This document shows, in pieces, positions 54,234 through 55,441 of a DNA stretch of 64,000 nucleotides; the first letter of the stretch is position 1, and every line of letters begins with the position of its first letter. Both the position numbers and the translations under genes were made by a program. The notes beneath the pieces are model-generated. The model did not search any database. It was not told the origin of the DNA and saw only the letters and a list, made by a program, of their open reading frames with translations. The stretch covers positions 736,001 to 800,000 of the forward strand of contig OY970364.1 in the NCBI GenBank assembly GCA_963718565.1, given 5' to 3'. The stretch comes from an uncultured Verrucomicrobiae bacterium. GTDB lineage: Bacteria > Chlamydiota > Chlamydiia > Chlamydiales > Rhabdochlamydiaceae.

Positions 54234-55441
54234 ACCCCCTCATCGAAGTGAAAAATTTATGCAAAGAGTTCGATGTACAAGGAGGGAATTGCAAAACTCC
54301 TCGCCGCATAAAATCGCGCTTTTGGCACCTGTCGCCTTGGCGGCGGCTGCCTTCGGCCCCGGTTCGCTCCTTCGCTCACCTGCTTTGCACTGCGAAGGTT
54401 CCCCGGACCTTCTCGTGTCTTCGCAGCCACTTATCCAAGTATGCTTTCGCCGCCGCCAACCGAACCCGCTGTGCGAGTTCTGGCAACAGGCGCCAAAATC
54501 ATCGATTTTCTGCTGGAGAGGAGTTTTGCAATTCCCTCCAAGGAAAAAAGCTGCTTGCTGTCCGCAATGTTTCTTTTGCCATCGGCCAGGGAGAGACATT
54601 GGGGCTAGTTGGCGAATCGGGTTGTGGTAAATCAACGCTGGGGCGCTGCCTGCTTCGTCTTGAACAAGTGACTTCTGGAGAGGTCCTTTATCAGCAAAGA
54701 AATCTCCTCTCCATGGGCCGCAGAGAATTATTTTCTTTTAGGCGCAACGCACAGATCATCTTCCAAGACCCCTATTCTTCTCTCAATCCTCGGATGACAG
54801 CGGGCGATATTATCGCCGAACCCGTGCGCATCCATCGCTTGATCGCTAAAGCCGACATCAAAAAATATGTCGCCTCGCTTCTCGAAATGGTAGGCTTAAG
54901 CAAAACAGCTTTTGGACGCTTTCCCCATGAATTTTCAGGGGGACAACGACAACGGATCGGAATTGCCCGAGCCTTAGCACTAAAGCCTCATTTCCTTATC
55001 TGCGACGAACCCATTTCGGCACTTGATGTGTCCATTCAAGCCCAGATCGTTAATCTGCTTAAAGCTCTCCAAAAAGAGCTGAGTTTGACTTATCTATTTA
55101 TCGCGCATGATTTGGCTATGGTCAAATATATCTCTGATCGCGTCGCTGTCATGTATCTAGGAAGCATTGTCGAAATCGCCCCTTCCGAAGAACTTTATCG
55201 CCATCCTCAACACCCCTATACTCAAGCTCTGCTCTCCGCAATCCCTCTGCCCGATCCTTTGCTAGAACGCACACGGAACCGGATCCCGCTTTCTGGAGAA
55301 GTCCCCAGTTTGATGAATCCGTTAAGAGGCTGCCCTTTTGCCAGCCGATGTCCTCATGCGATGCCCAAATGTTTAGAAGTGCACCCCGAACTCAAAGAAT
55401 CTACAGCCGGCCATCTCGTTGCCTGCCATCTTATTGAATAG
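54230..55441 (+). CDS. oppF: Oligopeptide ABC ATPase with an 87-aa in-frame insertion
   Basis: [16 protein letters not shown] and CPFASRC motifs; foreign segment between duplicated QG residues. Confidence 0.9.
54282..54538. mobile_element. GAGGGAATTGC palindromic element inserted in frame in oppF
   Basis: 21-bp perfect TIRs gagggaattgcaaaactcctc / gaggagttttgcaattccctc; 4-bp TSD caag; 257+4=261 nt. Confidence 0.92.

What the first reader, a model, noticed from the sequence alone, without database searches (positions are those of the whole stretch)
54278..54542. Palindromic element inserted in frame adds 87 aa to OppF just before Walker A
A 257-bp element with perfect 21-bp TIRs and a caag duplication adds exactly 261 nt with no stop codon. 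Removing it restores [15 protein letters not shown]. Shorter family members at 30624 (TSD tgaa), 62895 (TSD taca) and 20978 support mobility and a 4-bp TSD. This parallels Rickettsia palindromic elements (established), here in a chlamydial genome. The track also shows long ORFs across it in another + frame (54259-54630) and on the - strand (54240-54635), so the element is stop-poor in several frames.
Basis: partly seen in the sequence, partly recalled or inferred. Interest (0 to 1): 0.82.

Follow-up and report, generated by a model that had tools for sequence, protein, structure and literature searches.

The report
Mobile palindromic element inside oppF gene
A 257-base mobile DNA element has landed inside the gene for a peptide-transporter ATPase of a chlamydia-like bacterium without breaking its reading frame, and it belongs to a family of about 140 copies that has done the same in several other genes, much as the palindromic elements of Rickettsia do.

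Summary
Window 54282-54538 is a 257-bp miniature inverted-repeat element (MITE) with perfect 21-bp ends and a duplicated CAAG. It adds 261 nt (87 codons, no stop) to oppF between strands beta1 and beta2, 24 residues before Walker A. None of 19 relatives has the segment. The closest orthologue shows the exact empty site.

The family occupies about 140 places in this 2.28-Mb genome. Of 69 complete copies, 51 have an identical 4-bp duplication, against 0 of 69 in a control.

The in-frame state is largely built in. The four commonest lengths (257, 182, 71, 56) all give 3n once the 4-bp duplication is added, and 3 of 6 frames are open. That number of open frames is no more than base composition and palindromy would give.

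Selection has clearly filtered the copies. 18 of 31 frame-compatible copies lie in ORFs, and 16 of those 18 are read through. 0 of 14 copies that are one or two bases off the main lengths do. At least five other genes (for a MenF-like enzyme, MutY, an RluA-type synthase, TsaB and a SET-domain protein) carry copies that their orthologues lack.

The oppD frameshift next door is probably an assembly error. Whether the enlarged OppF still works is not shown. This is a new family that behaves like Rickettsia palindromic elements, in a new lineage, not a new kind of system.

The parts
54282..54538 (.). 257-bp MITE (the subfamily that is exactly 257 bp long), 58% G+C in a 43.6% G+C genome
   Evidence: As RNA it folds into one long hairpin of -135.6 kcal/mol, z = -10.5. 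No Rfam match.
54282..54302 (+). Left terminal inverted repeat, 21 nt
   Evidence: 0 mismatches to the search word.
54518..54538 (-). Right terminal inverted repeat, the exact reverse complement of the left one
54278..54281 (.). Left copy of the target-site duplication, CAAG
   Evidence: The orthologue in G004 has a single CAAG here.
54539..54542 (.). Right copy of the target-site duplication, CAAG
   Evidence: A short-read contig of run X1 spans 54493-54643 with 0 differences, so it bridges this junction.
54349..54428 (.). Inner 80-nt module. It is absent from the 182-bp form, which has CTCCT in its place
   Evidence: and the joint 54348>54429. The module occurs alone in congeners at 76-89% identity.
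54230..55441 (+). oppF, 403 aa with the insert. The added residues are about 18-104. Walker A is at 128-136
   Evidence: The model gives pLDDT below 50 for residues 18-97, with beta1 (3-15) and beta2 (107-119) kept.
53246..54233 (+). oppD, split in the assembly by one extra A at 53495
   Evidence: That base is absent from one contig each of runs X1 and X2, which otherwise show 0 differences.
49810..53249 (+). oppA (49810-51417), oppB (51398-52318) and oppC (52344-53249), all intact and abutting or overlapping
30624..30679 (.). 56-bp copy of the same family, flanked by a TGAA duplication (30620-30623 and 30680-30683)
20978..20999 (.). 22-nt mini-palindrome made of the family's end sequence, with no clear duplication
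62895..62914 (.). 20-nt remnant of the left end, between TTACA direct repeats
   Evidence: Not found at 3 mismatches or fewer.

Best explanation
**What it is**
- Window 54282-54538 is a non-autonomous DNA transposon (MITE).
- It was moved in trans by a transposase that makes a 4-bp staggered cut, usually at T-W-W-A. Here the cut was at an unusual CAAG inside codons 17-18 of oppF.

**Why the frame survives**
- 257 + 4 = 261 nt, and the frame that was hit is one of the element's three open frames.
- oppF therefore stays open and encodes an OppF with 87 extra residues. The extra stretch is basic (17 K+R against 2 D+E) and contains 5 Cys.
- It loops out of the tip of the beta1-beta2 hairpin, four residues after the aromatic residue of beta1 and 24 residues before Walker A.

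**Timing and family**
- The insertion is recent and, as far as the data go, specific to this genome.
- The family has colonised coding regions the way Rickettsia palindromic elements do.
- Selection has removed copies that break frames. What remains are frame-compatible copies, mostly near the 5' ends of genes or in tolerant linkers.

**Inferred, not shown**
- The extra stretch is translated.
- It is a disordered surface loop.
- OppF keeps at least part of its function.
- The -135 kcal/mol hairpin in the mRNA may lower OppF expression.
For: **Element anatomy**
- Perfect 21-bp ends and a CAAG duplication.

**Family**
- 232 end words in the genome.
- 69 paired copies of 400 bp or less. 51 of the 69 have identical 4-bp flanks, against 0 of 69 when the flanks are displaced by 10 bp.
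- The duplications are 82% A+T, with T at position 1 in 40 of 51 and A at position 4 in 33 of 51.
- About 140 places, 17.3 kb in all.
- Full copies are 94-98% alike.

**Empty site**
- 19 of 19 aligned relatives lack the 87 residues.
- G004, at 85.5% identity, reads straight across the site.
- Among the best 120 proteins listed from the 5.8-billion-protein collection, only the window's own protein covers the insert.

**The gene looks alive**
- Every invariant ABC motif column of the alignment is kept.
- dN/dS against G004 is 0.088/0.882.
- oppA, oppB and oppC are intact.
- The oppD frameshift is absent from short-read contigs of two runs.
- No second oppF exists in the genome. The next best matches are oppD at 44% identity and others at 33% or less.

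**Structure**
- AlphaFold2 keeps the ABC fold. Block means of pLDDT are mostly 80-95 from residue 110 to 340. Residues 18-97 fall below 50, between beta1 (3-15) and beta2 (107-119).
- The best Foldseek match is E. coli OppF, 8z21_D, with TM 0.78 by target length.

**Selection at family level**
- 18 of 31 copies of length 257 or 182 lie in ORFs of 200 aa or more, against 0 of 14 copies of length 258, 259, 181 or 183. Fisher p = 1.6e-4.
- 77% of random genome positions meet the same ORF criterion.
- 16 of the 18 are read through without a stop. Binomial p = 6.6e-4 against 0.5.

**Orthologues lack the element in five other genes**
- MenF-like enzyme and MutY, with both flanks aligned.
- RluA-type synthase, SET-domain protein and TsaB.
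Against: - **No expression data.** No RNA or protein data exist for this organism here, so translation of the insert and function of OppF are inferred.
- **A single copy is weak evidence.** A read-through copy arises by chance in about half of all insertions into a gene (3 of 6 frames open).
- **The copy is young.** It has only about 3 private differences from its subfamily. Too little time has passed for a dead gene to show decay, and the low dN/dS mostly reflects the period before insertion.
- **The site is sensitive.** By recalled knowledge of ABC ATPases, it lies next to the adenine-stacking aromatic residue. A +15 charged, Cys-bearing 87-residue loop there could harm ATP binding or folding.
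- **The mRNA hairpin could block translation.**
- **No partner transposase.** None of the 10 IS families examined has matching ends.
- **Many ORF calls are uncertain.** 16 of the 18 'in-ORF' sites lie in the first 13% of the ORF. Some may really lie upstream of the true start codon. Only 6 genes have orthologue or domain support for coding sequence around the element.
- **The ORF criterion is my own.** It is not a gene annotation.
- **The short-read runs may not be independent.** They may come from the sample that was assembled.
Confidence: 0.85

Rival explanations
1. The insertion has killed oppF, or is killing it. The frame is open only because of the element's length and a one-in-two chance, and the enlarged protein misfolds, cannot bind ATP or is not made. 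The gene would be a young pseudogene that has not yet decayed.
For: - 3 of 6 frames are open and 257+4 = 3n, so about half of all hits in a gene stay open.
- The copy is young, with about 3 private changes, so the absence of decay says little.
- The site is four residues from the beta1 aromatic residue.
- The duplication CAAG is atypical: it is the only one of 51 that ends in G. This fits a random hit better than a favoured, tolerated site.
- The mRNA hairpin is -135.6 kcal/mol.
Against: - At family level, frame-breaking copies are absent from ORFs and 16 of 18 copies in ORFs are read through. Genes that carry the element are therefore generally kept in use.
- oppF is single-copy.
- The rest of the operon is intact, and oppD is intact in short-read contigs.
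- The model keeps the ABC fold with the insert as a separate, low-confidence loop.
Confidence: 0.3
2. The element in oppF has been taken over for a function. It could be a regulatory RNA hairpin that tunes the OppD:OppF ratio, or a new basic, Cys-containing loop that modulates the ATPase.
For: - The hairpin is very stable.
- The element's three frames encode peptides of different character.
- Frame choice tends to follow the type of host protein. All 8 frame-B copies sit in hydrophobic N-terminal regions.
Against: - The insert is found in this genome only and is young, so there is no conservation to argue from.
- The link between frame and host protein is weak: Mann-Whitney p = 0.07.
- The peptide has no Pfam match.
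Confidence: 0.05
3. The segment is ancestral to OppF and was lost in relatives, or it is an assembly artefact that placed a repeat copy inside oppF.
For: - The assembly does contain at least one probable single-base error nearby, in oppD.
- Repeats are hard to assemble.
Against: - Perfect inverted ends, a 4-bp duplication and about 140 other copies mark the segment as an insertion.
- 19 of 19 relatives, reaching into other families, lack it.
- A short-read contig bridges the right junction with 46 and 105 matching letters and 0 differences.
- No joint that skips the element was reported.
Confidence: 0.02

Closest known systems
Rickettsia palindromic elements (RPEs; Ogata et al. 2000, seen here only as cited in the passages of PMC10969869, PMC3184786 and PMC1458961 that I read)
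   Same: - Both are short palindromic repeats in an obligate intracellular bacterium.
- Both are inserted in frame in many unrelated genes and add a peptide to the product.
- The review reports 44 insertions in R. conorii genes. R. bellii has 526 RPEs, 53 of them in protein-coding genes.
- Here about 140 places carry the element. 16 complete copies are read through within ORFs, and 6 genes have orthologue support.
   Different: - The host phylum differs. This is a chlamydia-like organism with 5 TLC nucleotide-transporter matches.
- This element is longer: 257 or 182 bp, against about 105-150 bp.
- It has clear 21-bp inverted ends and a 4-bp duplication.
- It is read in three different frames.
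- Sequence homology to RPEs could not be tested, because no RPE sequences or models were on hand.
Bacterial MITEs in general, as defined in PMC3184786 (passages read)
   Same: - It has terminal inverted repeats and a target-site duplication.
- It has no transposase gene and is under 400 bp.
- It is present in many copies.
- It folds into a long, stable RNA stem-loop.
- It is sometimes fused in frame to genes at the 5' end, internally or at the 3' end.
   Different: - No cognate autonomous IS with matching ends was found in this genome.
- The exact end word was not found in 185,579 species genomes.
- The four commonest size classes are all 3n once the duplication is added.
Other MITEs with reading frames: large BOX elements, intragenic ERIC, QMITE1 of Coxiella burnetii, MITEb and MITEe of Anabaena (named in a review passage)
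   Same: They carry open frames that can fuse to host ORFs.
   Different: These are known to me only from the review's list. No sequence or structural comparison was made here.
OppF and DppF ATPases of solved transporters (E. coli OppBCDF 8z21_D, DppBCDF 8z1v_D)
   Same: - The host protein matches 8z21_D over residues 106-400 (E = 4.5e-98).
- The model's best structural match is the same chain.
   Different: None of the solved chains aligns to residues 18-105. The insert has no counterpart there.

Membership tests
MITE (miniature inverted-repeat transposable element) | Terminal inverted repeats | tested here: met
   21 of 21 nt are complementary. The arms extend to 25 nt at 96%.
MITE (miniature inverted-repeat transposable element) | Target-site duplication of fixed length | tested here: met
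   51 of 69 paired copies have identical 4-bp flanks, against 0 of 69 in the displaced control. This copy has CAAG.
MITE (miniature inverted-repeat transposable element) | Small size with no transposase gene | tested here: met
   The element is 257 bp. The ORFs across it have no Pfam match.
MITE (miniature inverted-repeat transposable element) | Many dispersed copies | tested here: met
   125 matches in the genome, which merge into about 140 separate places.
MITE (miniature inverted-repeat transposable element) | An autonomous IS with matching ends that could move it | tested here: not met
   The ends of 10 IS or repeat families in this genome do not match. The exact end word gave 0 hits in genome contigs. 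A degenerate form gave 6 hits, none paired at IS distance. Many MITEs lack a known partner, so this does not bar membership.
Rickettsia palindromic elements | Sequence homology to one of the RPE families | not testable with these tools
   No RPE sequences or models were available. Rfam gave no match.
Rickettsia palindromic elements | Palindromic repeat inserted in frame in unrelated protein-coding genes | tested here: met
   Fold. The genes are oppF and those for a MenF-like enzyme, MutY, an RluA-type synthase, a SET-domain protein and TsaB; their orthologues lack the element.
Rickettsia palindromic elements | Found in the genus Rickettsia and its relatives | tested here: not met
   The host genome has 5 TLC nucleotide-transporter matches. 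Its relatives' contigs are labelled as Chlamydiae or Verrucomicrobia-group MAGs. It works like an RPE but is not filed as one.
OppF-type ABC ATPase (the host gene) | ABC_tran domain with Walker A, signature, Walker B and H-loop, plus the oligo_HPY C-terminal region | tested here: met
   Pfam: ABC_tran 7.8e-32 and oligo_HPY 2.9e-19. The invariant columns of the 20-sequence alignment are all kept.

The most novel reading that the evidence does not exclude
The family may be adapted to live inside coding regions rather than merely filtered by selection.
- **Frame-neutral lengths.** Its four main size classes (257, 182, 71, 56 bp) are all 3n once the 4-bp duplication is added. Its one abundant off-length subfamily (258/259 bp) is shut out of genes.
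- **Three kinds of peptide.** Two of its open frames encode basic, disordered peptides. The third encodes a hydrophobic peptide.
- **Sorting by host protein.** The hydrophobic frame is found in signal-peptide or membrane-anchor regions. The basic frames are found in cytoplasmic enzymes.
- **Consequence.** On this reading the element supplies ready-made protein segments in a chlamydial lineage, and the OppF loop beside the ATP site is raw material for a new regulatory feature.
Probability: 0.15. Interest if true: 0.75.

Novelty: new member of a known kind. Interest (0 to 1): 0.5.

Why it matters
In-frame colonisation of genes by palindromic repeats is best known from Rickettsia. Finding the same behaviour, with classical transposon hallmarks, in an unrelated intracellular lineage suggests it recurs in gene-dense, repeat-tolerant genomes and is not a rickettsial oddity.

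This genome also offers a clean natural experiment. Two near-identical subfamilies differ by one or two bases in length. The frame-compatible one sits in genes and the other never does. That is direct evidence that the element-bearing genes are still under selection.

There is a practical lesson for annotation. The 87 extra residues in OppF, and similar stretches in the genes for MutY, a MenF-like enzyme, an RluA-type synthase, TsaB and others, are transposon-derived. They are not lineage-specific domains.

In four searches of the paper library I found no report of such elements in chlamydiae. I judged the listed papers by title and abstract only.

Tried and rejected
- **Partner transposase.** I compared the ends of IS families of 1125, 1301, 1955, 1655, 1487, 1336, 828/1182 and about 2070 bp, plus a 685-bp repeat. 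None resembles the element's ends. A 1634-bp 'pair' of ends (G000 96519-98152) is two solo ends around a symporter gene, not an IS.
- **Collection scans.** The exact 21-nt end gave 0 hits in genome contigs, with the own genome excluded. The degenerate form gave 6 hits. One is the G001 copy already known, and most of the rest lie in unrelated phyla and look like chance.
- **Rfam.** No family matched at E up to 1 in 54000-54800.
- **Expression.** No RNA holder was listed among the public runs, so nothing can be said about expression.
- **Empty-site alleles.** The laid contigs reported no joint that skips the whole element. Cover of the left junction was too thin to count: only 10 letters lay on the oppF side.
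- **Earlier notes of this scan.** There were none for this genome.
- **Naming relatives.** The cluster look-up gave no organism names.
- **Stop-poor frames as a sign of selection.** Rejected, since shuffles do as well in 5-19% of trials.
- **Frame against host-protein type.** My first cut-off (hydrophobicity 2.0) gave no association. A rank test gave p = 0.07. I keep this only as a lead.
- **In-frame copies in relatives.** Element-like stretches lie in long open frames in G001 and G004. In the HemN-like case the element may lie upstream of the real start, so this is not counted.
- **dN/dS.** My first run used the wrong codon phase. I repeated it correctly.

Full report
**1. The observation**

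Reading the window shows the 21-nt word GAGGGAATTGCAAAACTCCTC at 54282-54302 and its exact reverse complement at 54518-54538. CAAG lies directly outside both ends. The repeat finder reports the arms as 25 nt at 96% complementarity.

The element is 257 bp, so with one CAAG it adds 261 nt. The ORF 54230-55441 (403 aa) runs through it without a stop. That ORF is an OppF-type ABC ATPase, with ABC_tran at residues 112-262 and oligo_HPY at 314-381.

The end word with up to 3 mismatches occurs 5 times in the window, against none in 100 shuffles. The coordinates and the arithmetic of the finding are correct.

**2. It is an insertion, not an old part of OppF**

I searched 30 related genomes: 18 of the same genus and 12 of other families. 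In every match listed for them, the oppF orthologue aligns only from about residue 102 of the query onward. One apparent exception is G017, whose alignment starts at residue 73 but crosses 4 stop codons. It also lacks the insert in the alignment.

- In an alignment of 15 translated orthologues plus 4 database proteins, 19 of 19 lack the 87 residues. They are continuous across the site.
- The closest orthologue is G004, at 85.5% identity. It begins [29 protein letters not shown], and its DNA has a single CAAG at the site.
- In the 5.8-billion-protein collection, 8000 candidates were scored and the best 120 were listed. Among those 120, only the window's own protein covers the insert. The nearest other protein is 88% identical and 318 aa long.

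**3. The family**

| Measure | Result |
|---|---|
| End words in the genome (up to 3 mismatches) | 232 |
| Paired copies of 400 bp or less | 69 |
| Copies 257 / 258 / 259 bp long | 8 / 7 / 4 |
| Copies 182 / 181 / 183 bp long | 23 / 1 / 2 |
| Copies 70-72 bp and 55-56 bp long | 7 and 4 |
| Paired copies with identical 4-bp flanks | 51 of 69 |
| Same test with flanks displaced by 10 bp | 0 of 69 |
| Separate places with similarity to the element | about 140 (17.3 kb) |

- The genome is 2,284,058 bp in one contig. The remaining paired copies are scattered over other lengths.
- The duplications are 82% A+T. T is first in 40 of 51 and A is last in 33 of 51. CAAG in oppF is the only one that ends in G.
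- Full-length copies are 94-98% identical to the oppF copy.
- As RNA the element folds into a single long hairpin of -135.6 kcal/mol, z = -10.5.
- It has no Rfam match and no Pfam match in any frame.

All of this meets the textbook definition of a MITE (passages of PMC3184786).

Diverged relatives of the element occur in 15 of 18 congeners. The best is 81% identical, in G001, and has somewhat different end letters. The inner 80-nt module (window 54349-54428) also occurs on its own in several congeners.

The exact end word is absent from the species genomes of the public collection, with the own genome excluded. I found no IS with matching ends among 10 IS or repeat families of this genome. The transposase that moves the element remains unknown.

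**4. Is the in-frame state more than chance?**

For a single copy, hardly.
- The length of this subfamily plus the duplication is 3n by construction.
- 3 of the 6 frames are open, so about half of all hits in a gene stay open.
- Three open frames is itself unremarkable for a 58% G+C palindrome. 105 of 2000 dinucleotide shuffles and 381 of 2000 palindromic shuffles reach it.

For the family, yes. I removed each copy and one duplication in memory, then asked whether the empty site lies in an open frame. The criterion was an open frame of 200 aa or more, with a start codon at least 4 codons upstream and at least 5 codons remaining downstream.

| Group | In ORFs |
|---|---|
| Copies of the frame-compatible lengths, 257 or 182 bp | 18 of 31 |
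| Copies of 258, 259, 181 or 183 bp | 0 of 14 |
| Random genome positions (baseline) | 77% |

- The difference between the two groups of copies gives Fisher p = 1.6e-4.
- 16 of the 18 copies in ORFs are read through without a stop (binomial p = 6.6e-4 against 0.5).
- The 257-bp copies share diagnostic changes and form a subfamily distinct from the 258/259-bp copies. The contrast is therefore between two lineages of the element, one of which cannot sit in a gene without shifting its frame.

Caveats:
- The criterion is mine and not a gene annotation.
- 16 of the 18 sites lie in the first 13% of the ORF. Some may really lie upstream of the true start.

**5. Other genes with orthologue support**

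| Gene product | Element position and form | What the orthologues show |
|---|---|---|
| MenF-like chorismate-binding enzyme | residue 143, 257-bp form | in 5 of 5 relatives both flanks align next to each other, in frames of 435-446 aa against 520 aa here |
| MutY | residue 273, 182-bp form, inside the NUDIX-like domain | both flanks align next to each other in 4 of 5 relatives; the fifth contig ends at the site |
| RluA-type pseudouridine synthase | residue 27 | the Pfam domain runs from residue 9 across the element; relatives have frames of 217-267 aa against 276 aa here |
| SET-domain protein | residue 25 | element absent in the four relatives where the gene was found |
| TsaB | residue 17, 137-bp form | element absent |

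The element is read in three frames.
- Two frames give basic, hydrophilic peptides that begin GNCKTP and end GEEFCNSL.
- The third gives a hydrophobic peptide.
- All 8 copies in the hydrophobic frame lie in N-terminal hydrophobic regions of likely secreted or membrane proteins. Six cytoplasmic enzymes, and one Pfam-less ORF with a hydrophilic N-terminus, carry the hydrophilic frames. There are three exceptions.
- A rank test gives only p = 0.07. I report this as a lead.

**6. OppF itself**

- **Position.** The insert sits after [18 protein letters not shown] and before [11 protein letters not shown]. This is the turn between the first two beta strands, 24 residues before Walker A at 128-136.
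- **Model.** The AlphaFold2 model used the 20-sequence alignment and has a mean pLDDT of 71.8. It keeps beta1 (3-15), beta2 (107-119) and the rest of the ABC fold at high confidence. Residues 18-97 fall below pLDDT 50.
- **Structural match.** The best match is E. coli OppF, 8z21_D.
- **Recalled knowledge, not tested here.** The aromatic residue at the end of beta1 stacks on the adenine of ATP, and this hairpin lies on the outer face of the domain.
- **The added peptide.** It has 17 K+R, 2 D+E and 5 Cys.
- **No rescue by a later start.** No in-frame ATG, GTG or TTG lies shortly after the element (my reading), so a shortened OppF from a downstream start is unlikely.

**7. Is the operon alive?**

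- oppA, oppB and oppC are intact, and the genes abut or overlap.
- oppD is split in the assembly by one extra A at 53495.
- One short-read contig each from runs X1 and X2 lacks exactly that base and otherwise shows no difference. The frameshift is therefore probably a consensus error. Both runs belong to one study and may include the source sample.
- A contig of X1 bridges the right junction of the element (54493-54643, 0 differences).
- oppF has no close paralogue in the genome.
- Its dN/dS against G004 is 0.10. This mostly reflects the time before the insertion, because the copy has only about 3 private changes.

**8. The host**

The genome encodes 5 matches to the TLC nucleotide-transporter family, which matched none of the 14 control genomes. 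It is also rich in IS elements, with 229 kb in repeats of 500 bp or more.

**9. Comparison with what is known**

In-frame fusion of MITEs with host ORFs is described for several bacteria. Rickettsia palindromic elements are the extreme case.
- The review reports 44 insertions in genes of R. conorii (review passage).
- R. bellii has 526 elements, 53 of them in genes (passage).

The present family works the same way. It differs in host, in size, in having clear inverted ends and a 4-bp duplication, and in being read in three frames. Homology to RPEs could not be tested.

Four searches of the paper library found no description of such elements in chlamydiae. I judged the listed papers by title and abstract only, and subscription journals are not covered.

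**10. Verdict**

The finding is real and its interpretation is sound. This is a new RPE-like MITE family in a new lineage, a new member of a known kind. The sharp contrast between the frame-compatible and frame-breaking subfamilies is the most useful result. Whether the enlarged OppF works is open. I put it at roughly even odds, leaning towards retained function because of the family-wide evidence of selection.

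Noticed in passing
window 53490-53497 (oppD): The assembly has one extra A at 53495, which splits oppD into ORFs of 89 and 267 aa. One short-read contig each from runs X1 and X2 lacks that base, so it is probably an assembly error and not a pseudogene. Other single-base errors may exist elsewhere in this assembly.
   Followed up: yes
window 54349-54428; L052, L054, L056, L058, L060: The inner 80-nt module of the 257-bp element occurs on its own, at 76-89% identity, in several congeneric genomes and in other repeat contexts. 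The 182-bp form has CTCCT in its place. The element looks modular or nested.
   Followed up: partly
G000:C1:457076-457190; L056:1480-1690: A second palindromic repeat family has ends containing GGTTTTGTGAATTTGGAC and its complement. It is present in this genome and in a congener, where it flanks the inner module.
   Followed up: no
G000:C1:1467590-1469663 and at least 13 other copies: A 2.07-kb IS has a 630-aa DDE_Tnp_1 open frame, ends beginning CCCAAGTTCGC, and 4-bp duplications such as CTAG and TTAA. The duplication length and A+T-rich target match those of the MITE, but the ends are unrelated.
   Followed up: partly
G000:C1:358673, 582256, 1161134, 1356990, 1884452; window 20978-20999: The 22-nt word GAGGGAATTGCAAAACTCAGGT stands alone at 5 places with unique flanks. 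A 22-nt mini-palindrome of the end sequence stands at 6 or more places. These may be footprints or minimal derivatives of the element.
   Followed up: no
G000:C1:90419-91426 (-) and 286452-287468 (-): Two genes have their first in-frame start codon inside an element copy: one of the YitT family and one related to AIR synthase. The element may supply the 5' end of the reading frame.
   Followed up: no
G000:C1, 16 read-through copies listed: 16 of the 18 insertion sites in ORFs lie in the first 13% of the ORF. All 8 copies read in the hydrophobic frame lie in signal-peptide-like N-terminal regions. One copy (1797198) splits a lipoprotein-type signal peptide in a hydrophilic frame.
   Followed up: partly
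window 58697-59381: A 685-bp repeat is present in at least 6 copies in the genome at about 99.8% identity. I did not characterise it.
   Followed up: no
window 55431-56741 (-): A convergent gene for a eukaryote-type Ser/Thr protein kinase (Pkinase, 3.4e-30), with a Ser-rich N-terminal region, overlaps the 3' end of oppF by 11 nt.
   Followed up: no
G000:C1:2550-3777: A 614-bp unit is duplicated in perfect tandem (100% identity). It lies next to several element copies near the start of the contig.
   Followed up: no
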